Part shown: positions 45,416 through 60,502 of the stretch, in pieces
Layout of the letters: each line of letters begins with the position of its first letter
Position numbering within the stretch: the stretch's first letter is position 1
Origin: a virus
Virus record (IMG/VR): IMGVR_UViG_3300045988_125893
Length of the DNA stretch: 64,000 bases
Strand: one strand, 5' to 3'
Made by a program: the position numbers and the translations under genes
Notes under the pieces: generated by a model
Databases searched by the model: none
What the model saw: only the letters and a program-made list of their open reading frames with translations
What the model was told of the DNA's origin: nothing

Positions 45416-48400
45416 CTACTTGTAGCTCACATCATCGTCTCCTTCTGAATCAGGAGTGGCACCGATGAAAAACATCATTGACTTGTTGTTCGTCTGCTGC
45501 CACCAGTTATAGGCACGTGCTACGTCTTCCGGCGTCTTAATGTTATACCATTGTTTGATAAACGTCTGTTTAGCGAGTTGTCTAAATAACTTAGACTCAC
45601 CTTTATATGTACCAGATGTTACTTTATCAAGTGAGTAGTTCCTGAGATCGGTGAGATCCTTCAGTTTCCGTCCCATGACAAATGGGTCATTAATGATATC
45701 CACCACATTAAGCTCCATAATAAACGGCATCTGTGAAGCTATTTCATTTATGGTTCTAAATCCTACATAAGATCCGAATTGAGTAAGCCAGCTTTCCTCG
45801 TTTTCATCATCATCACGCCATCCGGCAAGAAGCATAGACACGGCCTGCATGATGAGGAACGTGCCGGCATAAACACTGAGGCGTTTAAGATTAGTCTTTT
45901 CCACCTCACCCATCTTATCTTTATTTTCGTTCCAGGCATCTATGATATTTTTCATACCAGGCTCGGAAGCTAAGCTAAATGTTTTAGCTATCATATTCTT
46001 TAACGTAATTGACAGCCCTTCCTCTTCTTGCATTGTCTGGAAATTGAATCCCCTTCTTTTCCACAGACGTTGAGCCGCCAGCACCAGCCATCCTCGGTGG
46101 GCAGTCATGAACCTGGCTATCCAGTTACGTGATGCGGCGGTTCGGTTTTCTTCATTCAAAGATCCGTTACATATCTGTGACAAGCTACGAACCTGATTAC
46201 GGGTTATAGCCATCTGGGTTTCAACTTCCTCAACAGTAACACCCGATCCTGGTTTCACAACCACCTTGCCGTCTACAACATCTACCATACTCCATAAAGT
46301 ACGATCTCTTAATGCATCCCATTCTCTTTTTATAGTGCTCTGTTCTTTATTGCGTTCTTTTTCCATCTTGAAATCCTGGAACGTGTAGAACCGACCTTTG
46401 TAATAACGAACGTTATCCATCGTAGCGATCATAACCTGCGGATCAAGAGGGTAGTTCATGATTTCCATAAAAGCATACATCGGTGAACGCATTAAGGTCC
46501 TGGCCGCCCTATTATATCCGGCACCATACATACGATTTCGGATATTGAATATCCCCATTCTCTCACCTATGACATATAATTTGCTTTTTCTATCTATGTC
46601 TCCGGTTTCTGCTATACAAGATGGCGCAAGACGTGAAAACTCAGCCGATGCGTATTTAAGGGAATCTTTGCTTATATATTGTCCTACGGCAGATTCCATG
46701 ATGAGGTTAATATGACCTGTCAGAGCGCCGGTAGCTGCCACAAACGGGGACAGCGCTAAGTTCATGACCGACATAAACCTTTCAACGGCCATCATAATTC
46801 TTGTAAGATCTATCGTGTATCCACCGATGTTAACCGTAAGTTTCTTGGTGTTCATCCTAATGCCATAATAATGGTCATTAAAGAAGTCTCTAAACATCTG
46901 GTATGCTTGAGTTGCCTCAGCTTTCTTACCGCCTTCAAATTGCTTATTCAGTAACATCTGCTCCAGTCCTTGGGCAAGCTCTATAGACTTCTGCTTTTCG
47001 TTGTATAACGATGATTGCATCATAAGCATCGAATAAGAATAACCAAAATCATGAGATACGTCATCTTGGTTCTCTAATTCATATATGTAGTATTTAGGTA
47101 TAGACCTAATCCTATCTTCTGGATCATATACTTCCCCTTGTCTGGTTTTACCGTATAGAGAATCGTCTACTCTGTCCAGACAGAGATCTGATACAAAATT
47201 ACGAACCGTATTTTTGAAGTTGATACCCAATCCCTCCATACGTTCTATATCTTGTTTGGATATCTGTGGAATAGCATACAAATTGGGGCTCTGCTCTTTG
47301 TATAAGGAAAGGGATTGTCTTTTTATTTCCTTAAGTTTTTGAATCATATTCCATTGCTCTACGTTTTTAGTAGCAATCTCATTACCATCAGCATCATATC
47401 TAATGCCGAAGTCATTGAAATACGATTCATCACGATACAGGCTCTTCTTGGGCATACGATAACCATACCCATGATCTTTTACATAATCTGGGTTACGACC
47501 GCTATTTTCAGCTTCAGATTCAGCCACCCACGCTCTTGCAGGGTCGAAAGATAGGTACGATATATTCATACCATAATCTTGTGTGGATGTCCCGTTCTGT
47601 ACGTCTTTAACCATCTGTGCCACGTCTATCTCACCTCGACCTATTTTACCAAGCATAGCCGCATATCCGGTAGGAGCCATGCGTTTGTAATATGAAAAGA
47701 CTTGACTTCTGGCAAATTCATTAACAATAGCATTAGCCTCTTCTATACCTGATTCTCTTGTGTTATTTAAAAACAAGCTGGCCATCTTAGTATTGACAGC
47801 ATTCCTAAAATCTCTACCGTCTAATTCTTTGTTTATTCCAAGCTTTTCTGACAAGTAGTTGGTTTCAGATACAGTAAACAAATATCGGTTATCAGCAGCC
47901 TTAAATAGTTTATCCCTTAAGGCTTGAATCCTTTTTGCTTTCTTTGCCGTAGTATGACGTTGCACAAACTTCCATTCCACTTCCTTGGAGTCAGCAAGAG
48001 CATTTAAATAAGATTGATTGACTTCGTTTTCAGCCTTACTGCTTTTAGTAAGGTATTTATCAATATCTTCAAGACCCACCATCTTAGCATAATCTATTAA
48101 AATAGCGTAATCGGTTTCAATAGCTTCAGATGCAGCCCTAAAAGCATCTCTTTCAGATGAGGTAAATGTCGCTTCATTGATTTCTCCGATGTCAGCCACA
48201 TCGCGGTTATTCCCAATTATTTCCTTGATGATAGCCCTGTTTTTTTCTATATCTTTCACAATAGCTTCTACGTCTGTCGCATCTCTATCACTTGTCGTAG
48301 AATTAATGATATCATGCGCCATTTTAAGATACGAAGCCTTGTTGTTTGATTCGGTGCGTGCCGACTGATCTGACTCTATATCATTCCAAAACTGATCATT

Positions 48401-51400
48401 AAAAGCCAGGTGTCCTCCTAACATAAGCGTTCTCAGTGCAGCCTCCCCTCCAGACTCACGCTGAATCGTTCTCAATCTTTCCAAAAATGATTCTGATACG
48501 GCATTAGTAACATTATTTGATTCTTTTCTCCATACTTCATTTATAGCTTGTATTTCTTTAGCCATCTTGAGTTGATCACCGGTTTTATCGACTCTTCTGG
48601 TTCCTACATATATGTATTCTGAAGCTGCTTCCTTACGTTGTTTACGAAGCAGTCCTTCTTCTTCATAATTACTGCTCTTGAAGTAAGCAACTTCATCAAA
48701 ATTACCATTGCTATCAATAAAAGGTTGCCTCAATATCCGTTTTTGCCGGGAAAGAGCATTAAGATATTCTTTAGTTGTTTGAGAAACCGGATACCCCAAT
48801 TCTTCTTCAGCCTTTTTGTATATGGATTCCATTCTTGTGGCATAACTTTCACTAAATTCCAGTTCTGAATTTTCAGCATCCCACTTCTCCATCTGTTCTG
48901 TATAAATCCTTTCCTGCTCGATGGTAAAGATGTCGGTATTAACCCTATCAGAAGAAGGTTTGAATTTAGCGTTCTCAGTAACCGTATTTCCATCCTTGTC
49001 AACTACTTCTCTTTTAAACACATAATTACGGTTATTGTCAACCACATCATTGATTTCTTCTTCTGATATCTCTATGTTCATGGCAGTTGCAAACGCTCGC
49101 ATCTGCGCCAGCTTCTTATTACGATCGTATTTAGCCATATCAAGAGCACTACGAAGATAATTAGAAGTCTTGCCGTCTACTTTCTGAAGCAGTTTTTCAA
49201 ATTCAGATTTATTGAAACCATGTTTTTTCGCATATGCCAGGAAGTCGGATATGGCTGGCTGGGCATTCACCATCGCATTATAATTGTCTTTGGCAATCAT
49301 AGCTCCAAGAGCGTTATTAAACGGGCTGGAAGAATGTTCTAATATACCAAACCACCTACTTATCCAGGACACATCGTGTTGAACTTTATCAAAGAACTCT
49401 TTTACTTTCTTTACCTTATCTGCCGGCACATGAAGTTCGTTCATTAACTTGTCAAGCAACGTACTTTCATCAAGATCTTGTACTGATTTAATATCAGACT
49501 GAATACCATTGATGTCGGCAATGACGGTATTGATCCTATTTGTATAATCTTGCTTTTCACGTTCGTCAAATTCGGTACTTCTGTTACGGATATATCCTCG
49601 AAGATCGTTCATGATCGGAAGAACCTGATTGTTGATAATATCTACGTTCTTTCGATCATTGGTATTGAAATGAAGTTTACCGTCTTTGGTATCACCATGA
49701 AGGATAGTATTTACTACATTGCTTAAGTATCTGACCTGAGCTTCGGCTGTGGAGATCATGCTATTCATGGCAGCCGCCATCTCATTTTTGTCTATTTCGG
49801 TCTCTACCTTATTTATCTTATCTTCTATGGTCTTAAGTTGAGCAAGGGTCATAGATGTAGTTACAGCCCTATCAGAGCTTATCTGACGTAAGTCTCTCAA
49901 TGTTTTTCTCAATGCCCGGATCTTAGACTCAAGAAACTTGTTCTTGTTCATAGAGGAAAGAGAGTATAATGTAAAATCATTATCCTTTAAAAGAGAAGTA
50001 TCAAATCCTTTATCTATGTCGGTAATAGCAAGATCACGAATGTTTTTAATAACGTTATTCAAATCTTGTCTTTGGGTAGATAAAGCTGATTTAAGCCAGT
50101 TTACGATTCCAGAGAGAAGCTGCCGGACGCGTCCCAGGAAGGAGGTGGGCTCTATGGGCGCCGTTCTGTCCTGCATCTCCCTGGCAAGGATCTTTCCAAG
50201 AATTTCTTTCCTAACTACATTGTCAAGTTCAGTTCCTTCATATACCTTACCGTATGTATTATAATACTGATTTGCATACTGATTCCATTCTTCAGTGCCT
50301 TCTACGTCTTGCAAAACAGATTCAACAGCATTCTGATCTCTGTACGCCTCTACAAGGAAGTGGGCTGTTTCTTCTACTAAGTCAGACAAAGTAGCATCTT
50401 CACCGACTGCTATTACGTTATTGGCAATATCCGCCAATGCTTTAGCAGAAGGTTCGTGTCCGTATTTAGTTTGGTACTTCTCTATATAATCGGTCATGCC
50501 AACGACACTAACGCCCAGCGTTTTCAGTATCTCAACAATAGAATTTCGTTGATTACGTTCCTCTTGGCTATAATCCGATACTATCTTAGCTTTAGTATCA
50601 GCATAAAGATCATTGTCTTCTAATATAAATGAAACTACAAGCGCATCAAAGTGATCGTATTTAGCATCCAATTCATTGTATCTTCCAGACTTAAGATCGC
50701 TCTTTATCTGCTCCTTGCTAACTCTTTCTGTTCCTCCGGTGGCGAGTCTCATAGTCACCTTACTATTATCCAATGAATTTATGGTTATCATGCCTTGATC
50801 ATTCATGGAAACATCAGAACTGAAATGATTACGAAGTTCGGTATAAGCTAAGGCTGAATTGAAAAGTCTAATTTGTCCTGCATGTCCTTCTCCTGTAAGA
50901 TAATAGCTTCTTGTTTCCGGATCGAATATCTTGGATCCTGACAAAAGACCTTTCTTTATAAGGTAGTTTATTATCCCACCTTTTGTTGATAAAGAAGTGG
51001 AAGCAGAGGCGGTCATAACAGGTATAAAAGATTTGGGGTTGTTAAGGACATACTTTCCAGCCTTGTAAGTAATGTCTGCCACGCCATCCCAGGCAGATTC
51101 TTGAACGGTGCCAGATAAGAATCCTATTCTGATATCATTCCCGCCAGAGCGAAGAGCTTCTCCGTAATCTTCAAATAATTGATTACGATCATTCATAAAA
51201 AACAAACGAGGTTCTCCAGTCTGATACGTTACACCCACAGGATTAGAATCTGTTTCTGGTAGCTCTTCTGGACTAAATATCTTAAGACCGTCTTTTATAA
51301 CCATATAATTAACATCATTATCCTGTACCATAGATACGGGAGTGAAGTCCGAAGATATAGCATCTTGTAGATACTGCCCTGAGTCTATTCCTGGTTCTTC

Positions 51401-51832
51401 CGGCACGGAGATCCTTGACGGAACCATAGCATCCACCAACATAATATTATCACCCAGATCTTGGCTATAGAATCCAAAGCCTGATTCTTGAATCCCATAA
51501 GGTGCATCTGATTTCGACACAAGAATAGGGTTGCTCATCTTAGAAGCCTTATCCAGCACCCTTTCTCTATAGGTCTCTGGAATAAGGCCGATGTTAGATT
51601 TTACCTTATTGTAAGCCTGTTTGTTGATAGGCACATTCCTTCTCCAGTCACCAAAAGCCTTTAAGAACTTATTAGAAAATACGGTTTTAAAAACAGTAGT
51701 AGCCCGTTCCCTATTTTCCATAAGAGGAATAGATGCTATCTTATCGAATAACATAGACCTGTCCCCTGATCTGGTAGAGACAGAAACAACTTTCTTTTTA
51801 TTATCTCTTTTAATAATACACGTTGATACCAT
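45416..51832 (-). CDS. giant 2138-aa protein, probably virion-associated (tape-measure/ejection/cargo-type); function unknown
   Basis: uninterrupted 6.4-kb ORF heading the minus-strand block with structural-like genes; no Walker or polymerase motifs recognised by eye. Confidence 0.9.
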   Translation of the reverse strand: MVSTCIIKRDNKKKVVSVSTRSGDRSMLFDKIASIPLMENRERATTVFKTVFSNKFLKAFGDWRRNVPINKQAYNKVKSNIGLIPETYRERVLDKASKMSNPILVSKSDAPYGIQESGFGFYSQDLGDNIMLVDAMVPSRISVPEEPGIDSGQYLQDAISSDFTPVSMVQDNDVNYMVIKDGLKIFSPEELPETDSNPVGVTYQTGEPRLFFMNDRNQLFEDYGEALRSGGNDIRIGFLSGTVQESAWDGVADITYKAGKYVLNNPKSFIPVMTASASTSLSTKGGIINYLIKKGLLSGSKIFDPETRSYYLTGEGHAGQIRLFNSALAYTELRNHFSSDVSMNDQGMITINSLDNSKVTMRLATGGTERVSKEQIKSDLKSGRYNELDAKYDHFDALVVSFILEDNDLYADTKAKIVSDYSQEERNQRNSIVEILKTLGVSVVGMTDYIEKYQTKYGHEPSAKALADIANNVIAVGEDATLSDLVEETAHFLVEAYRDQNAVESVLQDVEGTEEWNQYANQYYNTYGKVYEGTELDNVVRKEILGKILAREMQDRTAPIEPTSFLGRVRQLLSGIVNWLKSALSTQRQDLNNVIKNIRDLAITDIDKGFDTSLLKDNDFTLYSLSSMNKNKFLESKIRALRKTLRDLRQISSDRAVTTSMTLAQLKTIEDKINKVETEIDKNEMAAAMNSMISTAEAQVRYLSNVVNTILHGDTKDGKLHFNTNDRKNVDIINNQVLPIMNDLRGYIRNRSTEFDEREKQDYTNRINTVIADINGIQSDIKSVQDLDESTLLDKLMNELHVPADKVKKVKEFFDKVQHDVSWISRWFGILEHSSSPFNNALGAMIAKDNYNAMVNAQPAISDFLAYAKKHGFNKSEFEKLLQKVDGKTSNYLRSALDMAKYDRNKKLAQMRAFATAMNIEISEEEINDVVDNNRNYVFKREVVDKDGNTVTENAKFKPSSDRVNTDIFTIEQERIYTEQMEKWDAENSELEFSESYATRMESIYKKAEEELGYPVSQTTKEYLNALSRQKRILRQPFIDSNGNFDEVAYFKSSNYEEEGLLRKQRKEAASEYIYVGTRRVDKTGDQLKMAKEIQAINEVWRKESNNVTNAVSESFLERLRTIQRESGGEAALRTLMLGGHLAFNDQFWNDIESDQSARTESNNKASYLKMAHDIINSTTSDRDATDVEAIVKDIEKNRAIIKEIIGNNRDVADIGEINEATFTSSERDAFRAASEAIETDYAILIDYAKMVGLEDIDKYLTKSSKAENEVNQSYLNALADSKEVEWKFVQRHTTAKKAKRIQALRDKLFKAADNRYLFTVSETNYLSEKLGINKELDGRDFRNAVNTKMASLFLNNTRESGIEEANAIVNEFARSQVFSYYKRMAPTGYAAMLGKIGRGEIDVAQMVKDVQNGTSTQDYGMNISYLSFDPARAWVAESEAENSGRNPDYVKDHGYGYRMPKKSLYRDESYFNDFGIRYDADGNEIATKNVEQWNMIQKLKEIKRQSLSLYKEQSPNLYAIPQISKQDIERMEGLGINFKNTVRNFVSDLCLDRVDDSLYGKTRQGEVYDPEDRIRSIPKYYIYELENQDDVSHDFGYSYSMLMMQSSLYNEKQKSIELAQGLEQMLLNKQFEGGKKAEATQAYQMFRDFFNDHYYGIRMNTKKLTVNIGGYTIDLTRIMMAVERFMSVMNLALSPFVAATGALTGHINLIMESAVGQYISKDSLKYASAEFSRLAPSCIAETGDIDRKSKLYVIGERMGIFNIRNRMYGAGYNRAARTLMRSPMYAFMEIMNYPLDPQVMIATMDNVRYYKGRFYTFQDFKMEKERNKEQSTIKREWDALRDRTLWSMVDVVDGKVVVKPGSGVTVEEVETQMAITRNQVRSLSQICNGSLNEENRTAASRNWIARFMTAHRGWLVLAAQRLWKRRGFNFQTMQEEEGLSITLKNMIAKTFSLASEPGMKNIIDAWNENKDKMGEVEKTNLKRLSVYAGTFLIMQAVSMLLAGWRDDDENEESWLTQFGSYVGFRTINEIASQMPFIMELNVVDIINDPFVMGRKLKDLTDLRNYSLDKVTSGTYKGESKLFRQLAKQTFIKQWYNIKTPEDVARAYNWWQQTNNKSMMFFIGATPDSEGDDDVSYK

Positions 51833-52296: not shown

Positions 52297-52318
52297 TGCC
52301 ACAAATATATAAAAAAAG

Positions 52319-52349
52319 TCGGACAAGATACATGTCCGACCTTTTTTTA
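52319..52349. terminator. hairpin gtcggac-aagatacat-gtccgac flanked by A7 and T8 (bidirectional)
   Basis: read directly. Confidence 0.7.
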
Positions 52350-52529
52350 CTTTGATTCGTTTTCAAACCGCTTTATAAGAGAAGCAATATCATCACCACA
52401 AATAAACATCATTCTACGTTCTTCTTTTGGTTTATGAGACGTTGGGATGGTTTTGTTTATTTTAATCTGATTCGCCAGACCTCTGCCTAAACGAATATCA
52501 GCTTTTTTACCTTTAATGTTGAACTTCAT
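52347..52529 (-). CDS. hypothetical small basic protein
   Basis: ORF 60 aa ending at terminator. Confidence 0.4.
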   Translation of the reverse strand: MKFNIKGKKADIRLGRGLANQIKINKTIPTSHKPKEERRMMFICGDDIASLIKRFENESK

Positions 52530-52842
52530 AGATTATTTGTTTAAACAGACCAATTCCGTCTATTATAATATGACCGCTTCGCATACGACCATTATTAAGA
52601 TTGTAAAGGAAATTAAAACCACTTTCTTTTTCTTGTCTTTCAAAAGAACTGATATCCTTTCCTCTACGAGCTCTTCCAAAAGCCTTCTTGAACAACTTTC
52701 CTCTGAAGGTCTTGACAAGGTTCTTGGTAGCTTTATTACCGGCTCTTATCGTTACTTTCCTTGCCTGGTTTTCTGAGACAAAACTGCTTCGGAAAATATA
52801 CGATGCTGCTGCTTGTATATCTTGTTTAGTAATCATATGCAT
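52513..52842 (-). CDS. hypothetical basic protein
   Basis: ORF 109 aa. Confidence 0.5.
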   Translation of the reverse strand: MHMITKQDIQAAASYIFRSSFVSENQARKVTIRAGNKATKNLVKTFRGKLFKKAFGRARRGKDISSFERQEKESGFNFLYNLNNGRMRSGHIIIDGIGLFKQIIYEVQH

Positions 52843-53189
52843 ATGCCAAACATTTCTTTCAGAATACTGATCTTTATTCCGTATATCAATTTCATCTCAT
52901 CTCTATCATATACGTCAAAAAAGGATTTACTGGGGTCCTTTGGATTTGCGTTCAATTGAATTATGCAATTACCAGTATAAACCTTAAGCCTATAATTATC
53001 GGAGTATATATCCTGCATGGTCTCAAATGTCTCAATTAAATTTTCAACAAGAACTCTGTTAAATGAAAAAGATTCTTTGCCATCACCTTTAAATGTGATA
53101 TGATCTAAATTCTTGTTGTCAAATTCGTACTCTAACTGATTGCCGTCCATCATATCATAAAAGATTGACTTTTTGATTCTAAATCCCAT
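52833..53189 (-). CDS. hypothetical protein
   Basis: ORF 118 aa. Confidence 0.55.
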   Translation of the reverse strand: MGFRIKKSIFYDMMDGNQLEYEFDNKNLDHITFKGDGKESFSFNRVLVENLIETFETMQDIYSDNYRLKVYTGNCIIQLNANPKDPSKSFFDVYDRDEMKLIYGIKISILKEMFGICI

Positions 53190-53205
53190 ATTATTTTGTT
53201 TTTAG

Positions 53206-53511
53206 TTAATATAAATCTTCCGAATACAATTGTTCTCTAATGGCATTCCTATCTACTACCATTTCTTGATTATTGTTTCTAACAAGTTCAGATGCTTCCT
53301 CTCTTGTTAGAAACCGGTTCTTGCTTGTCAAAAATCCTTGAATACTACGGTTTTTATGGGCTATGCCATATGCAGCAAGTTGCGATATTATAGAACAGTG
53401 TCTCAATCCACAAAATACGGTTCCAGATGGTATATTTACGGGACCGTGAGGCTTGTTCTTGTGATCTTGAACCCATATAGCTGCGCATACAACAATTTCC
53501 TTATCGCACAT
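53206..53511 (-). CDS. hypothetical protein
   Basis: ORF 101 aa. Confidence 0.55.
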   Translation of the reverse strand: MCDKEIVVCAAIWVQDHKNKPHGPVNIPSGTVFCGLRHCSIISQLAAYGIAHKNRSIQGFLTSKNRFLTREEASELVRNNNQEMVVDRNAIREQLYSEDLY

Positions 53512-53514
53512 AAA

Positions 53515-53790
53515 TCAATAATTTAAAATACCGTTTTTACCAATATGCTTCTTTTCTTCTTCAGTAGGCCATTCTTTCTTGAACTTACCGTGCCACGTTC
53601 CAGGAACCACCACCAGTTGGTCTTCCTTATCATATTCAATAGCAGCACATTCAGAACAAAGAGGCTTGCCTTCATACCCTTTTAAAGATTCATCATAAAC
53701 ACGACCTATACAAGGTCTTATGAGAAACCAGTAATATGATGTGGCTGTATTATCTATACAGCCACACTTTGAACATACAAACAAACTCAT
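53515..53790 (-). CDS. hypothetical zinc-ribbon protein (CSKCG...CSEC)
   Basis: ORF 91 aa. Confidence 0.55.
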   Translation of the reverse strand: MSLFVCSKCGCIDNTATSYYWFLIRPCIGRVYDESLKGYEGKPLCSECAAIEYDKEDQLVVVPGTWHGKFKKEWPTEEEKKHIGKNGILNY

Positions 53791-54539
53791 CCCGCAATCT
53801 CCCAGTCATTAGACATAATATCATGTTCGGTTGGATTCCAATTTGATGCTACTTTTTGACCTGTATCTACCATCAATATATTTACGTCAGATTCTGCAAT
53901 AAACATACAGATATACTTTTTACCCCAATCGATTCTTTTTATCTTACGACCTAATTTAAGCTGTTCTAAAGCCTTTTCGAATGTCATGCCATGACGAGGC
54001 AGTTTGAGATACTTTTCAAGTCTGTCGGCGGCTTCATTTGGTGTATGGCCATCATATTCGAAAGCGGTTTCTCTTTCAGGAACATCAAACAAATCCCAGT
54101 ATTTGCTTTTATAGTGATTAGATACCTGACCGGTAGGCAGGATCGCCATCACAATAAACCAGTCATCAGAACCGAAGCATTTTTCTCCGTCGCTGTGTCT
54201 CCTTGATTTGCAAACTTCAACCTGTCCGTTTCTGGCTAATAGATTAAAGAAGGCAGCGTTGTACAACATGCGGTACCGATACAATTCATTGAAAGTATGG
54301 TATCCGTCAGAAACTTCTCCCATGTCTCCTGGTTCTGCTTTAGGTTCAGGATGATTAGGATAATAGTAGTCCACTGATGCTTCTAACACAGACTTGATGT
54401 GTTCTACTATCCTCGTAGCATCATCATGTCTTAAGAAATACTTGAATCCTTCAACGAATTTAATATCTTCATTGATTGTTGATTCGAACTCTTCTTTTGT
54501 CATTGCTCTAACTACATCTTTAAAATCTTTTAATTCCAT
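53787..54539 (-). CDS. fusion protein with C-terminal DUF2829 (Tad2-like, anti-Thoeris sponge family) domain
   Basis: C-terminal MTFEKALEQLKLGRKIKRIDWGKKYI ... NWNPTEHDIMSNDWEI matches remembered DUF2829 signature (MxFxEAL..LK.GKK..R..W ... W.PSQ.DLLAEDWEI); N-terminal 170 aa unknown. Confidence 0.65.
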   Translation of the reverse strand: MELKDFKDVVRAMTKEEFESTINEDIKFVEGFKYFLRHDDATRIVEHIKSVLEASVDYYYPNHPEPKAEPGDMGEVSDGYHTFNELYRYRMLYNAAFFNLLARNGQVEVCKSRRHSDGEKCFGSDDWFIVMAILPTGQVSNHYKSKYWDLFDVPERETAFEYDGHTPNEAADRLEKYLKLPRHGMTFEKALEQLKLGRKIKRIDWGKKYICMFIAESDVNILMVDTGQKVASNWNPTEHDIMSNDWEIAG

Positions 54540-54562
54540 AATTTGTTTTAAATTAGTTGTTA

Positions 54563-55195
54563 TTATGCTTTCTTTATCTTACAATACAAATCCCACAAAA
54601 ACTCAGCAGAAAAACCACCCCATGCATTATTCTGCCAAATATCTACTTTGTTAATAAACCAAGACCATGTAGGACCATCATATGAAGAATCAGATGATGA
54701 TCCCAATCCGATTTTCTCCATTTCATTCGCCACATCAGAATAAGGATCTAAATCGACTCCCCTAATCATGTTAATAATATCATCCTTGTCTAACGTAAAT
54801 TGAAACCGCTCCTCGTTAGTAGGCGGATCTTGATTCAATTTACCAGTCGCAAGCCATTCTCCATCATGATACAATTCGGCAAGTTTCTTTACCTTATTTT
54901 TAAGAAAAGAATACTCTTGTATGACTTCCATAAAGTCAGCTTCGTTAGCTTTACCCTCTATGAAGATAACGGTTTTGCTTCCAGGTCTATGATCGTCTAA
55001 GCTTGCCGGGATTCCCAATATCGTCCATCCTTTAAACTCAGCTATCTTAAAACGCATGACATCAAACACCTTATAGAAATCATCACAATCTACAGATTCT
55101 ATTACCTTAACATCCTCTTCCGTAAATTTACCTCGTATTGGAATAACGTGATGACCAGGGCAGCCATTGGTTCCGAAATATGCGATTCTAACCAT
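54563..55195 (-). CDS. hypothetical protein
   Basis: ORF 210 aa. Confidence 0.6.
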   Translation of the reverse strand: MVRIAYFGTNGCPGHHVIPIRGKFTEEDVKVIESVDCDDFYKVFDVMRFKIAEFKGWTILGIPASLDDHRPGSKTVIFIEGKANEADFMEVIQEYSFLKNKVKKLAELYHDGEWLATGKLNQDPPTNEERFQFTLDKDDIINMIRGVDLDPYSDVANEMEKIGLGSSSDSSYDGPTWSWFINKVDIWQNNAWGGFSAEFLWDLYCKIKKA

Positions 55196-55196
55196 A

Positions 55197-55400
55197 TTAT
55201 CTATAATATTTTAATTGTTCTGAAATCCTATATTTACTTATATCATCACACAAGTTACACCCTCCTGTGCATCCATAAATCGAACAATACGAGTCTCTTT
55301 CTGCCTTCGATCTGGATTGGAAATCTCTTACGGCTTTAATCCAGGTAGGAGAAACTATCTTACCAGAGAAAGAAGGTACGTTTAAAAGTAGTGTTTTCAT
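55197..55400 (-). CDS. hypothetical small protein with CxxxCxxC motif (CTGGCNLC)
   Basis: ORF 67 aa; separated from next gene by TAAtATG. Confidence 0.5.
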   Translation of the reverse strand: MKTLLLNVPSFSGKIVSPTWIKAVRDFQSRSKAERDSYCSIYGCTGGCNLCDDISKYRISEQLKYYR

Positions 55401-55615
55401 GATTTCGCTGAAACATTCGTATAATACGGTACATCTACCACATCTCTTCTATGAAGTTCCTTCTCAAAATAAGAAACCATATAGGTATTTTTACCTTCGT
55501 GATCAGGCCTGGGATCAAAGCATTCAAAAACGAATCTTGTTCTACCTTCAAGATGACCAAACATGAAAACAAACTCACCACCGTATCTTTTGTTAGCCAA
55601 TTCTTCTACTGTCAT
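55397..55615 (-). CDS. hypothetical protein
   Basis: ORF 72 aa. Confidence 0.5.
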   Translation of the reverse strand: MTVEELANKRYGGEFVFMFGHLEGRTRFVFECFDPRPDHEGKNTYMVSYFEKELHRRDVVDVPYYTNVSAKS

Positions 55616-55839
55616 AACCTGTCTCCTCCCAATCCCGAATTGATGCTAACGTACTTAACACGGACATCGTTTCCACGTCCAAGCTGACCCCAGCCGGGCG
55701 ATGGCGTTCCCTTTGCCGGAGCAGCGACAGCCCTAAGCCGAGGCCAGTCCTGATTTTGTCTTATGGCCTCCGCCTCTTTGTAATATTGGTTACACAGCTC
55801 TTGATCTTCGTACCCAATGTAATCTTCTTTATTTTCCAT
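55612..55839 (-). CDS. doubtful ORF; its 3' half is the GC-rich segment that may instead be the IS right end/omega RNA
   Basis: ORF 75 aa; second half Pro/Gly/Ala-rich from locally GC-rich DNA. Confidence 0.3.
   Translation of the reverse strand: MENKEDYIGYEDQELCNQYYKEAEAIRQNQDWPRLRAVAAPAKGTPSPGWGQLGRGNDVRVKYVSINSGLGGDRL
55665..55742 (-). ncRNA. candidate TnpB omega-RNA (reRNA) 3' scaffold / IS right end
   Basis: abrupt ~60% GC island in ~35% GC genome, 130-210 nt downstream of tnpB stop on same strand; position typical of IS605-family right end. Confidence 0.35.
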
Positions 55840-55872
55840 AGTTGGAAATTTTATAGTAAAACATAATAATTA

Positions 55873-57016
55873 CTACTCCATTATAGACGCTTCATTGAGA
55901 TTCGTAACCTCATCCCTCTGCATCCGATTATAGAGGATATCAACTCCTACCCTCTGTATGTTTATTGCAGCATTCAAATCTCTATCTATTTCAATGCTGC
56001 AATTTTCACACTTGAAAACTCTATCTGATAAAGTTAAGTCTTCTTTCTTCCATCCGCATTTGGAACACGTCTTTGATGATGGAAAAGAACCTGTCTATTA
56101 CGACAAGTTCTTTTCCATACCAATTACATTTGTATTCCAACATGCTTCTAAACATTGAGAAACTTGTATCGGATATAGCTTTAGCCAATTTGTGATTCGA
56201 TAACATTCCAGAAACATTTAAATCCTCTATACAAATAACATCATAATTATTTACAAGTGAAGTGGTAACATTATGAAGAAAGTTGTTTCTCTTATTAGCA
56301 ATCTTGTTATACAATCTTGCTATTTTTATTTTATTCTTTCTATGCCTGTTACTTCCTTTACTCTTTCTACTTAAATGTCTTTGTATTTTAGCTATTTCAG
56401 ATTGTTTCTCTCTGAAAAACTTGATATTATCAATCACAATTCCGTCAGACAATGTAGCAAAAGATTTCAATCCTAAATCTATACCAACCGTTTTACCAGT
56501 CTTTCCCTTGTGATGCATGACCGTATCTACGAGAATAGAAACAAAGTACTGATTGCAACAATTTTTAGATATCGTACATGACAGCATCTTTGAATTATTA
56601 GGTATATTCCTATCAATAGACATCTTAACCCATCCTATTTTCTCTAATCTTATCTTATTATCTTTTAATGAGAATTTTTGATTAGGTAATCTATAAGATT
56701 GGTTTCCAGATTTCTTTTTAAAAGAAGGTCTGCCTATTTTCTTCTTTCTTGTTTTAGAGAAAAACTGGTTGGTAATTTCTTGAAAATCCCTTATCTTTTG
56801 TTGTATAGCAGCGGCAGAGATTTCATTCAACCACGGCTTGTCAATTATTAAATCAGATTTAATAATGATTTTAGGTTTAGGATTACTATCCTTATCATAA
56901 GAATTGAAAGATTCGACATTAGCATTCCAAATTACACGAATACATCCAAAAGTCTTAGAAAGCAACCCCTTCTGAGACTTATTAGGATATATTCTGTATT
57001 TGAAAGCTTTATGCAT
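55873..57016 (-). pseudogene. tnpB: IS200/IS605-family tnpB (RNA-guided nuclease) disrupted by +1 frameshift in a T-run
   Basis: main frame MHKAFKYRIYPNK...VVIDRFF then SIIKDVF...*; alternate frame just downstream reads [42 protein letters not shown] (zinc finger plus RuvC-III); shift at ttcttttcc (~56088-56096). Confidence 0.8.
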
Positions 57017-57113
57017 CGTTTAATTATTTAAAAGCAAATATAGTTACAATTCTATGATTATACAATATTCATAAATTAATTAGATTTAAAATAATACAAT
57101 GTATATTAAAATA

Positions 57114-57896: not shown

Positions 57897-58268
57897 TCAA
57901 TAAGAACGACCACGACCTCTTCCCCTACCTCTACGCATCTGGGGACCATCACCGTAGTATCTGTCGTCTCCATAATAATCGGTCGGGTAAGATTCGTAAC
58001 CCATCCTCCGGTATTCCCGGTCCTCCATTTCATGACGGCGTTCGCGTTCTTCGAGTCTTCTTTCTCTTTCTTCCAACTCGTTTTCACGTTCTTCCATCTC
58101 TTTCATTTTTTCATGCATACCATAATGGTCATAAGGAGGAAGGAATCCATGTCCGTAACCCATGTACGTCCCATCAGAACGACGACTACGACCTCTGCCT
58201 CGTCTATCTTCTATCTCGTCATATCCAGGATATTCTCTTTGTCCTGAATTTAAATCATATACTATCAT
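57897..58268 (-). CDS. low-complexity Arg/Glu/Gly-rich protein (RGRGRG tracts, ERERRLEERERR repeats)
   Basis: ORF 123 aa. Confidence 0.5.
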   Translation of the reverse strand: MIVYDLNSGQREYPGYDEIEDRRGRGRSRRSDGTYMGYGHGFLPPYDHYGMHEKMKEMEERENELEERERRLEERERRHEMEDREYRRMGYESYPTDYYGDDRYYGDGPQMRRGRGRGRGRSY

Positions 58269-60280: not shown

Positions 60281-60502
60281 AATTTATAGTATTTAATTGT
60301 TAAACATACGTGCATGAAGCACGTAACAAAGATCATGATTGTAGAGTGGAATACAGGTGTGTTTATTTCCTATAGAAGAGAAGTATTTTCAGCAAAAACG
60401 GAAGTATAATACACAATAATTAATTTTCCCCATTTAATGTGAAAACCTGATAATCAGAAACTTACGCTTTTCCCATTTTGGGTAAAGCGCTGTAAATCAA
60501 AC

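What the first reader, a model, noticed from the sequence alone, without database searches (positions are those of the whole stretch)
52347..55839. Island of small minus-strand genes with a Tad2/DUF2829-like fusion: candidate anti-defense locus
Between the giant virion gene and the TnpB insertion lie about 10 short genes. One, 53787..54539, ends with ...MTFEKALEQLKLGRKIKRIDWGKKYI...NWNPTEHDIMSNDWEI. This matches the DUF2829 signature as I recall it. DUF2829 is the family of Tad2, a phage sponge for Thoeris gcADPR signals. Here that domain is fused to an uncharacterised ~170-aa N-terminal domain (YHTFNELYRYRMLYNAAFFNL...CFGSDDWFIVMAIL). Neighbours are also small: a 67-aa protein with CTGGCNLC (CxxxCxxC), a 91-aa zinc ribbon, and 101-, 118- and 210-aa unknowns. 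This is the typical architecture of phage counter-defense cargo. The fused N-domain and the neighbours could be new sponge or inhibitor modules.
Basis: partly seen in the sequence, partly recalled or inferred. Interest (0 to 1): 0.75.

Follow-up and report, generated by a model that had tools for sequence, protein, structure and literature searches.

The report
Tad2-like fusion gene in crAss-phage island
A dispensable cluster of ten small genes in a human-gut crAss-like phage includes a protein whose tail end really is a Tad2-type domain (a fold phages use to soak up bacterial alarm molecules). That domain is an atypical version fused to a widespread, very conserved domain of unknown function, and nothing yet shows that it blocks immunity.

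Summary
Ten same-strand ORFs (52347-55839) are real genes (pN/pS 0.09-0.41), and the cluster ends at a strong terminator-like hairpin. The window is an epsilon crAss-like phage, 91% identical to CrAssE-Sib.

The "uncharacterised N-domain" is a helical hairpin plus the Pfam WDGH domain (PF25311, E 1e-36). The fusion is not new: more than 1,000 database proteins share it, and GenBank already labels the CrAssE-Sib orthologue DUF2829.

The Tad2 module is atypical. It keeps the Trp/Trp/Asp ligand contacts, but it lacks the Asn of the WNGK loop found in every solved Tad2, and it lacks the β2-β3 insertion that forms the dimer interface.

The island is genuinely variable: the gene is present in 49 of 75 near-identical phages. 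However, the variation draws on only about 12 gene families plus TnpB/IscB insertions. The neighbouring genes have no informative homologues.

An anti-defence role is plausible but untested.

The parts
52311..52347 (-). Terminator-like hairpin (15-bp stem, then a T run) directly after the stop codon of the last island gene. It probably marks the 3' end of the island transcription unit.
   Evidence: This is a consensus scan only; function is inferred.
52347..52529 (-). 60-aa ORF with no homologues of known function. Variable.
   Evidence: Present in 43/75 close relatives. pN/pS 0.41. No family hits.
52513..52842 (-). 109-aa basic protein of unknown function.
   Evidence: Present in 61/75. pN/pS 0.20. 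Only sub-threshold Pfam hits.
52833..53189 (-). 118-aa protein of unknown function.
   Evidence: Present in 60/75. pN/pS 0.30. No Pfam, PHROG or PDB hit.
53206..53511 (-). 101-aa protein, member of PHROG 839 (function unknown). Homologues occur in T4-like Acinetobacter phages and in jumbo phages.
   Evidence: (E 7e-17). Present in 60/75. pN/pS 0.09. No PDB hit.
53515..53790 (-). 91-aa protein with two CxxC pairs (probable zinc ribbon), PHROG 11861 (function unknown).
   Evidence: (E 1.7e-13). Present in 40/75. pN/pS 0.24.
53787..54539 (-). 250-aa three-part protein: helical hairpin, WDGH domain and Tad2-like domain.
   Evidence: Present in 49/75 close relatives. pN/pS 0.22.
53796..53987 (-). 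Tad2-like (PF11195/DUF2829) domain, residues 185-248. This is a minimal version with DWGKKY in place of GWNGK and without the β2-β3 insertion.
54012..54320 (-). WDGH domain (PF25311), residues 74-176. Topology is α-β-β-β-α-α, with invariant His, Asp, Glu, Lys and Arg residues. Function is unknown.
54360..54539 (-). N-terminal helical hairpin (residues ~1-60), followed by a variable linker that carries a ~40-aa insertion in many alleles.
54563..55195 (-). 210-aa protein restricted to this phage group. It is part of an 805-bp indel (54572-55376) that CrAssE-Sib lacks.
   Evidence: 84 hits, all close relatives. Present in 30/75. No Pfam or PDB hit.
55197..55400 (-). 67-aa Cys-rich protein (CxxxxCxxxCxxC), in the same indel.
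   Evidence: Present in 26/75. pN/pS 0.21.
55397..55615 (-). 72-aa protein of unknown function.
   Evidence: Present in 59/75. pN/pS 0.21.
55612..55839 (-). 75-aa protein of unknown function. It is the first gene of the cluster.
   Evidence: Present in 68/75. pN/pS 0.13.
55841..57060 (-). IS605-type insertion carrying a frameshifted tnpB, placed 1 nt upstream of the first island gene. It is the flank of the island, not part of the cassette.

Best explanation
The region is a non-essential accessory cassette of an Epsilonunovirus (epsilon crAss-like, human-gut) phage. Ten small co-directional genes are probably transcribed as one unit that ends at the hairpin at 52311-52347.

The largest gene encodes a modular protein. 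A nearly invariant WDGH domain of unknown activity is joined through a variable linker to a C-terminal Tad2-like module.

The Tad2-like module most likely binds a small nucleotide-derived molecule. It would do so in a pocket built around two conserved Trp residues and one Asp (W205, W234, D240). The best guess for the ligand is a TIR-produced ADP-ribose derivative used as an immune signal by a Thoeris-type system of the Bacteroidales host. In that case the protein would act as a counter-defence factor.

Because the module lacks the phosphate-binding Asn and the dimerising insertion of characterised Tad2 proteins, its ligand and assembly probably differ from those of SPO1 Tad2.

Shown here: domain identity, fold, residue conservation, dispensability, and swapping of the Tad2-like module. 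Inferred: ligand binding, the ligand's identity, any effect on immunity, and operon structure.
For: - Pfam Tad2-like match at 47.6 bits against a cutoff of 25.
- PDB sequence hits only to Tad2 proteins: SPO1 Tad2, ModTad2, HgmTad2/AcrIIA7 and SptTad2.
- SPO1 Tad2 contact residues W25, W73 and D79 align with W205, W234 and D240. T65 is kept, and I63 is replaced by V. These Trp and Asp residues are at least 90% conserved across the fusion family.
- Tad2 relatives are known in Bacteroides phages and bind several different signals: gcADPR, cGG and His-ADPR (PDB 9eib).
- The gene is dispensable among near-identical phages, present in 49/75, yet it is under purifying selection.
- The Tad2 module is exchanged between alleles whose WDGH domain stays 96-98% identical (Tad2 identity 39-62%). 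This is expected if the module sets specificity in an arms race.
Against: - N26 of SPO1 Tad2 (N22 of HgmTad2) contacts the diphosphate, and the W21A/N22A mutant loses binding. Here that position is Gly (DWGKKY against GWNGK in every solved Tad2).
- T78 is replaced by His.
- The β2-β3 insertion with helix α2, which forms the V-shaped dimer of the tetramer, is absent. The ligand pocket of Tad2 exists only between protomers.
- No characterised Tad2 is a fusion protein. Published surveys analysed only short stand-alone versions.
- WDGH, not the Tad2 module, is the constrained core. Only 3 of 147 diverse WDGH proteins carry a Tad2-like domain.
- No neighbour matches a known anti-defence or defence family.
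- Whether the host carries Thoeris was not tested.
Confidence: 0.42

Rival explanations
1. WDGH is the working part of the protein, either an enzyme or a binder of a universally conserved host component. The Tad2-like module would then be one of several interchangeable accessory modules for ligand sensing, targeting or oligomerisation. On this view the protein is not a stoichiometric sponge. Its role could be host takeover, or enzymatic destruction or modification of a metabolite or signal.
For: - WDGH is far more conserved than the rest of the protein: 95-100% against 59-100% within the phage group.
- It is 60-79% identical between 50%-identity clusters whose flanking regions are unrelated.
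- It is 66-75% identical in Vibrio, Clostridium, Prevotellaceae and Bacteroides contigs.
- It has 21 invariant columns, including three His, two Asp, one Glu, one Lys and one Arg, and a repeated DG(x)HTxNE motif.
- 144 of 147 diverse WDGH proteins lack a Tad2 domain. Their partners include GNAT, sigma-70 region 4, Bro-N and crAss001_48.
- In P22-like phages and pneumococcal phages, WDGH proteins are stand-alone morons inside late operons.
Against: - There is no literature on the domain in the held library.
- Conservation alone does not show catalysis.
- The Tad2 module keeps its ligand-contact Trp/Trp/Asp residues, which argues that it still binds something.
Confidence: 0.3
2. The cluster is an ordinary set of phage morons or host-takeover genes with no counter-defence role. 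Here the DUF2829 fold would serve another purpose, such as protein or nucleic-acid binding.
For: - Nine of the ten genes have no informative homologue.
- The pan-island repertoire is small and fixed, about 12 families, rather than the diverse alternative cargo seen at classical anti-defence hotspots.
- Much of the variability could be collateral deletion around TnpB/IscB insertions.
- Key Tad2 features are missing.
Against: - Every DUF2829 protein with a known function binds immune signalling nucleotides.
- The ligand-contact residues are retained.
- The pattern of dispensability combined with purifying selection fits conditionally useful genes.
Confidence: 0.2
3. The protein is an AcrIIA7-like anti-CRISPR acting on Cas9 of the host.
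Against: AcrIIA7 is the same protein as HgmTad2. It has since been shown to be a gcADPR/cGG sponge, and binding to Cas9 was never demonstrated. The query lacks the insertion domain of HgmTad2.
Confidence: 0.04

Closest known systems
SPO1 Tad2 (Gp34.65; PDB 8SME/8SMF/8SMG), the founding anti-Thoeris gcADPR sponge
   Same: Same Pfam family (PF11195). Same α1 plus antiparallel-sheet plus C-terminal-helix core (Foldseek E 2e-5, TM 0.78, rmsd 1.9 Å). The W25, W73, D79 and T65 equivalents are conserved.
   Different: About 24% identity. N26 is replaced by G and T78 by H. The 24-residue β2-β3 insertion (α2, the dimer interface) is missing. The domain is the C-terminus of a 250-aa fusion rather than an 89-aa stand-alone protein. 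Oligomeric state and ligand are unknown.
ModTad2 (PDB 9EIB/8V3E; binds His-ADPR) and HgmTad2 = AcrIIA7 (PDB 8KBI-8KBM; binds gcADPR plus cGG; encoded by Bacteroides phages)
   Different: Both have the GWNGKG loop and long insertions. The HgmTad2 insertion (residues 32-72) forms the cyclic-dinucleotide pocket. The query has neither, so cyclic-dinucleotide binding of the HgmTad2 type is excluded by anatomy.
WDGH-domain proteins (Pfam PF25311), for example ORF54/gp56 of P22-like Salmonella phages ST104 and SE1, and proteins of Listeria A511-like, Bacillus Tsamsa-like, Lactococcus and pneumococcal phages
   Same: Residues 74-176 match the profile end to end (E 1.4e-36). All invariant residues are present.
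   Different: Most family members lack a Tad2-like domain. None has a described function, so membership says nothing about mechanism.
WOZ57315.1 of phage CrAssE-Sib (OR575929.1), annotated 'protein of unknown function (DUF2829)'
   Same: Orthologue, 92% amino-acid identity, in the same position in a syntenic island.
   Different: The CrAssE-Sib island lacks the 210-aa and 67-aa genes and the TnpB insertion. The published paper does not discuss the gene.
Anti-defence gene hotspots (anti-CRISPR loci; the Gad1/Gad2 locus of SPbeta-like phages)
   Same: Short co-directional genes whose presence differs among otherwise near-identical phages.
   Different: No validated inhibitor and no Aca-type regulator were recognised. 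Variation is presence or absence of a small fixed gene set, plus IS elements, rather than many alternative genes.

Membership tests
Tad2 / DUF2829 (Pfam PF11195) | Profile match above Pfam's gathering score | tested here: met
   47.6 bits against 25, E 2.4e-12, profile positions 1-72 of 73.
Tad2 / DUF2829 (Pfam PF11195) | Tad2 core fold (N-terminal helix, antiparallel β-sheet, short C-terminal helix) | tested here: met
Tad2 as gcADPR sponge | Aromatic and acidic ligand contacts (SPO1 W25, W73, D79) | tested here: met
   W205, W234 and D240 align with them. They are at least 90% conserved in the fusion family.
Tad2 as gcADPR sponge | Asn of the WNG(K) loop that binds the diphosphate (SPO1 N26, HgmTad2 N22) | tested here: not met
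   The query has DWGKKY. All four solved Tad2 types have GWNGK. The position is variable (G, K or N) in the fusion family.
Tad2 as gcADPR sponge | β2-β3 insertion with helix α2 forming the V-shaped dimer; homotetramer with inter-protomer pockets | tested here: not met
   The insertion is absent. SPO1 residues ~41-59 have no counterpart, and the segment is 11 residues, against up to 46 in the WNG-type fusion relatives. Oligomeric state itself cannot be tested with these tools.
Tad2 as gcADPR sponge | Binds gcADPR or a related signal and relieves Thoeris defence | not testable with these tools
   Needs biochemistry and infection assays.
Tad2 as gcADPR sponge | Short stand-alone protein (~90-170 aa) | tested here: not met
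   250-aa three-part fusion.
WDGH domain (Pfam PF25311) | Profile match above the gathering score, with conserved motifs including (W/Y)DGH | tested here: met
   125.1 bits against 27. YDGH at residues 162-165. All 21 invariant columns of 147 diverse members are present.
Known ADP-ribose or nucleotide-processing folds and nuclease folds, considered for WDGH | Structural similarity to a solved representative | tested here: not met
Phage anti-defence island | Gene content differs among otherwise near-identical phages | tested here: met
   75 loci with at least 95% identical flank. Individual genes are present in 26 to 75 of 75 loci. Island length is 1.6-6.6 kb.
Phage anti-defence island | Contains at least one experimentally validated inhibitor family, or many alternative cargo genes | tested here: inconclusive
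   The only lead is the atypical Tad2-like domain. The pan-island repertoire is about 12 families plus TnpB/IscB. No anti-defence HMM library was available.

The most novel reading that the evidence does not exclude
WDGH could be a previously unrecognised effector or enzyme fold that phages of many phyla deploy. In the crAss-like lineage it would be coupled to interchangeable Tad2-type ligand-binding cassettes. The protein would then capture TIR-derived or related immune signals and also process them, or act on a conserved host target. That would make it a modular 'sensor plus effector' counter-defence protein rather than a passive sponge, with cassette swapping retuning its signal specificity.
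Probability: 0.15. Interest if true: 0.8.

Novelty: new variant of a known kind. Interest (0 to 1): 0.45.

Why it matters
CrAss-like phages are among the most abundant viruses of the human gut, and almost nothing is known about how they evade Bacteroidales immunity.

If this atypical fused Tad2 module binds an immune signal, two things would follow. It would place Thoeris/TIR-type signalling and its suppression in the crAss-host arms race. It would also extend the Tad2 family to minimal, Asn-less, fused forms that published surveys excluded.

Separately, WDGH is a large family (at least 3,700 clusters at 50% identity). It is unusually conserved, has no solved structural relative and has no known function. 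The fusion to Tad2-like modules gives a first functional handle on it.

Tried and rejected
- PADLOC and NCBIfam scans of all island proteins gave nothing meaningful.
- An Rfam scan of 51-60 kb found no family, and no ωRNA model matched.
- PDB sequence searches with the 101-, 118- and 210-aa proteins found nothing.
- Literature searches for WDGH returned only noise. Searches for Tad2 fusions or crAss returned nothing relevant.
- I first read the low overall identity of the 250-aa protein among relatives (75-80%) as fast evolution. Per-domain analysis showed it is mostly a ~40-aa linker indel plus N-terminal variation. The real signal is the swapping of the Tad2 module in more distant alleles.
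- The homologue search with the 210-aa protein found only the same phage group.
- The scan of bacterial genomes gave no host assignment, only WDGH-only relatives in diverse phyla.


Full report
**What the window is**

The 4.2 kb around the finding is 91% identical to phage CrAssE-Sib (OR575929.1, 151 kb, human gut). This is an epsilon crAss-like phage of the proposed genus Epsilonunovirus (PMC11054128). Its hosts are thought, from CRISPR spacers, to be Bacteroides, Parabacteroides or Porphyromonas. Dozens of IMG/VR contigs of 80-155 kb carry the same locus.

**Checking the observation**

I compared each ORF with its ungapped alleles in 161 related loci. This gave pN/pS of 0.09-0.41 for every ORF, so even the 60-75-aa ORFs are real coding genes under purifying selection.

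A 15-bp-stem hairpin followed by a T run lies on the minus strand at 52347-52311, directly after the last gene. This suggests the ten genes form one transcription unit, which is an inference.

Upstream, the window carries a 1.2-kb IS605-type insertion (55841-57060) that CrAssE-Sib lacks. It begins one base before the first gene's ATG. Its tnpB is frameshifted.

**The 250-aa protein**

Pfam gives two significant domains:
- WDGH (PF25311), residues 74-176, E 1.4e-36.
- Tad2-like (PF11195, formerly DUF2829), residues 185-248, E 2.4e-12, 47.6 bits against a gathering score of 25.

The AlphaFold2 model (mean pLDDT 84) shows a helical hairpin (residues 15-59), a disordered linker, the WDGH domain and the Tad2-like domain.

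The architecture is not new. A search of 5.8 billion proteins found 1,170 homologues, and nearly all of the 120 best listed carry PF25311+PF11195. GenBank already labels the CrAssE-Sib orthologue as DUF2829, although the paper does not discuss it.

**Is the Tad2-like module a gcADPR sponge?**

The SPO1 Tad2 structure paper names W25, N26, W73 and D79 as the main contacts, with T78, I63 and T65 near the adenine. It also describes a tetramer in which helix α2 of the β2-β3 insertion makes the V-shaped dimer, and in which the pocket lies between protomers. In HgmTad2, the W21A/N22A mutant loses binding.

The HMMER alignments map these residues as follows:

| SPO1 Tad2 | Query | Status |
|---|---|---|
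| W25 | W205 | kept |
| W73 | W234 | kept |
| D79 | D240 | kept |
| T65 | T226 | kept |
| I63 | V224 | conservative change |
| N26 | G206 | lost |
| T78 | H239 | changed |

All four solved Tad2 types read GWNGK, whereas the query reads DWGKKY.

About 19 residues of the SPO1 insertion have no counterpart in the query, so the module is a minimal 66-residue core. This rules out the cyclic-dinucleotide pocket of HgmTad2, which the insertion builds. It also leaves the oligomeric assembly open.

Overall, family membership is established, but the sponge function is only plausible.

**The WDGH domain**

This is the most constrained part of the protein. Within the phage group it is 95-100% identical, while the N-terminus is 75-100% and the Tad2 module 59-100%.

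A full HMMER scan of 1.84 billion cluster representatives found 3,736 clusters (E ≤ 1e-3). The top hits are 60-79% identical over about 108 residues, in proteins of 140-638 aa with unrelated flanking regions.

Of 147 such representatives, only 3 carry a Tad2-like domain. Single cases carry GNAT, sigma-70 region 4 or crAss001_48, and the rest have no second Pfam domain. Bro-N and RRXRR partners appear among closer relatives.

Twenty-one columns are invariant. In query numbering they include D78, H81, E85, R90, N99, K111, S112, H115, Q138, N141, H142, D163 and H165.

WDGH occurs in 197 cultured-phage records, including Listeria, Bacillus, P22-like Salmonella, Streptococcus and Lactococcus phages. 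It is annotated as hypothetical wherever annotation was shown. In phage SE1 it sits between the coat gene and gp4. In a pneumococcal phage it sits between the portal and the MuF-like gene. Both positions make it a moron inside a late operon.

Relatives at 66-75% identity occur in Vibrio, Clostridium, Faecousia, Prevotellaceae and Bacteroides assemblies.

**Module swapping**

Among the 120 closest homologues, the Tad2 module falls into distinct types. I named them after the loop following the first Trp:

| Type | Count | Tad2 identity to query | WDGH identity to query | Note |
|---|---|---|---|---|
| WGK (query type) | 29 | 95% | 97% | |
| WKN | 24 | 39% | 96% | |
| WGG | 9 | 62% | 98% | |
| WND | 9 | 34% | 81% | |
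| WNG (canonical) | 13 | 32% | 77% | 46-residue insertion |

The C-terminal module is therefore exchanged on a constant WDGH scaffold. This is what one expects if the module determines specificity for a ligand or target. It fits both the sponge reading and the reading in which WDGH is the effector.

**Is it an island?**

I retrieved loci with the neighbouring giant protein's N-terminus rather than with the gene itself, which gave 75 phages at least 95% identical in that flank. Presence at 70% coverage or more was:

| Gene | Present in |
|---|---|
| 130 aa | 75/75 |
| 75 aa | 68 |
| 109 aa | 61 |
| 118 aa | 60 |
| 101 aa | 60 |
| 72 aa | 59 |
| 250 aa | 49 |
| 60 aa | 43 |
| 91 aa | 40 |
| 210 aa | 30 |
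| 67 aa | 26 |

The distance between the conserved flanks ranges from 1.6 to 6.6 kb. The cassette is therefore dispensable and polymorphic.

Clustering all island ORFs from 63 loci gave only about 12 gene families, plus mobile nucleases: two or three TnpB types and a 410-aa IscB-like protein found in 15 loci. The variation is loss or retention of a fixed set, possibly driven by these elements. It is not a market of alternative cargo. Relative to CrAssE-Sib, the window has an 805-bp indel that carries the 210-aa and 67-aa genes.

**The neighbours**

None of the other nine proteins matches Pfam, NCBIfam or PADLOC at a meaningful level.
- The 101-aa protein belongs to PHROG 839 (function unknown). 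It has about 31-35% identical relatives in T4-like Acinetobacter phages and in jumbo phages.
- The 91-aa protein, with two CxxC pairs, belongs to PHROG 11861 (function unknown) and has relatives in enterobacterial phages.
- The 210-aa protein is confined to this phage group.
- The three PDB sequence searches were empty.

Nothing supports or refutes an inhibitor role for any of them.

**Verdict**

- The Tad2 family assignment is right.
- The "new fusion" claim is wrong.
- The "anti-defence island" label is reasonable but unproven.

The most likely mechanism is binding of a nucleotide-derived immune signal by an atypical Tad2 module. I put this at about 0.4.

The main rival, at about 0.3, is that WDGH is the functional core and the Tad2 module an accessory cassette.

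The most interesting lead for follow-up is the WDGH domain itself and its swappable Tad2 partners.

Noticed in passing
window 55841-57060 (tnpB ORF 56021-57016, minus strand): IS605-type insertion that CrAssE-Sib lacks, starting 1 nt upstream of the ATG of the first island gene. Its tnpB is frameshifted: the zinc-finger/RuvC-III part (…[18 protein letters not shown]…) continues in another frame to ~55872, and the Pfam TNB domain is cut at 27/60. No Rfam ωRNA match.
   Followed up: partly
L119 ~7896 and 14 other related loci; L120 ~7363; L127 ~4553: The same island in related phages hosts a 410-aa IscB-like (RRXRR-type) protein (15/63 loci) and two other TnpB types. The island is therefore a hotspot for OMEGA-nuclease elements, which may drive its deletions.
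   Followed up: partly
L164-L168 (Vibrio olivae, Prevotellaceae, Faecousia, Clostridium and Bacteroides assemblies): WDGH domains 66-75% identical to the crAss-like phage copy occur in contigs assigned to different bacterial phyla. This is unusually high conservation for a phage accessory domain.
   Followed up: no
proteins P0106, P0279, P0283, P0291: Database proteins that combine most of the 210-aa protein with a Tad2-like domain or with fragments of the 250-aa protein. They suggest recombination or deletion junctions, or frameshifted gene calls, inside the island.
   Followed up: no
window 60404-60492 vs L001 12577-13681: The antirepressor gene annotated in CrAssE-Sib (L001 12629-13513) is absent from the window. 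About 1.1 kb is replaced by 89 bp.
   Followed up: no
window 53206-53511 (101-aa protein): Homologues at about 31-35% identity occur in T4-like Acinetobacter phages, Sphingomonas phage PAU and Tenacibaculum phage pT24. One record (PhaR5) calls its copy 'putative anti-restriction nuclease', but there is no supporting evidence and no PDB sequence hit.
   Followed up: partly
P0116-type relatives (346 aa): Some crAss-like relatives have a three-domain form, WDGH + crAss001_48-related domain (PF21825) + a canonical Tad2-like domain (69 bits).
   Followed up: no
window 45416-51832 (minus strand): The 2,138-aa 'structural protein' next to the island has no Pfam match at all. In CrAssE-Sib the region corresponding to its N-terminus is annotated as a separate 282-aa CDS overlapping the large structural-protein CDS. 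GC skew changes sign at ~45 kb, where gene orientation flips.
   Followed up: no
window 57897-58268 (minus strand): 123-aa low-complexity protein rich in Arg, Glu and Gly (EERERRLEERERR…RGRGRGRGR). Only about 40% of it aligns in relatives.
   Followed up: no
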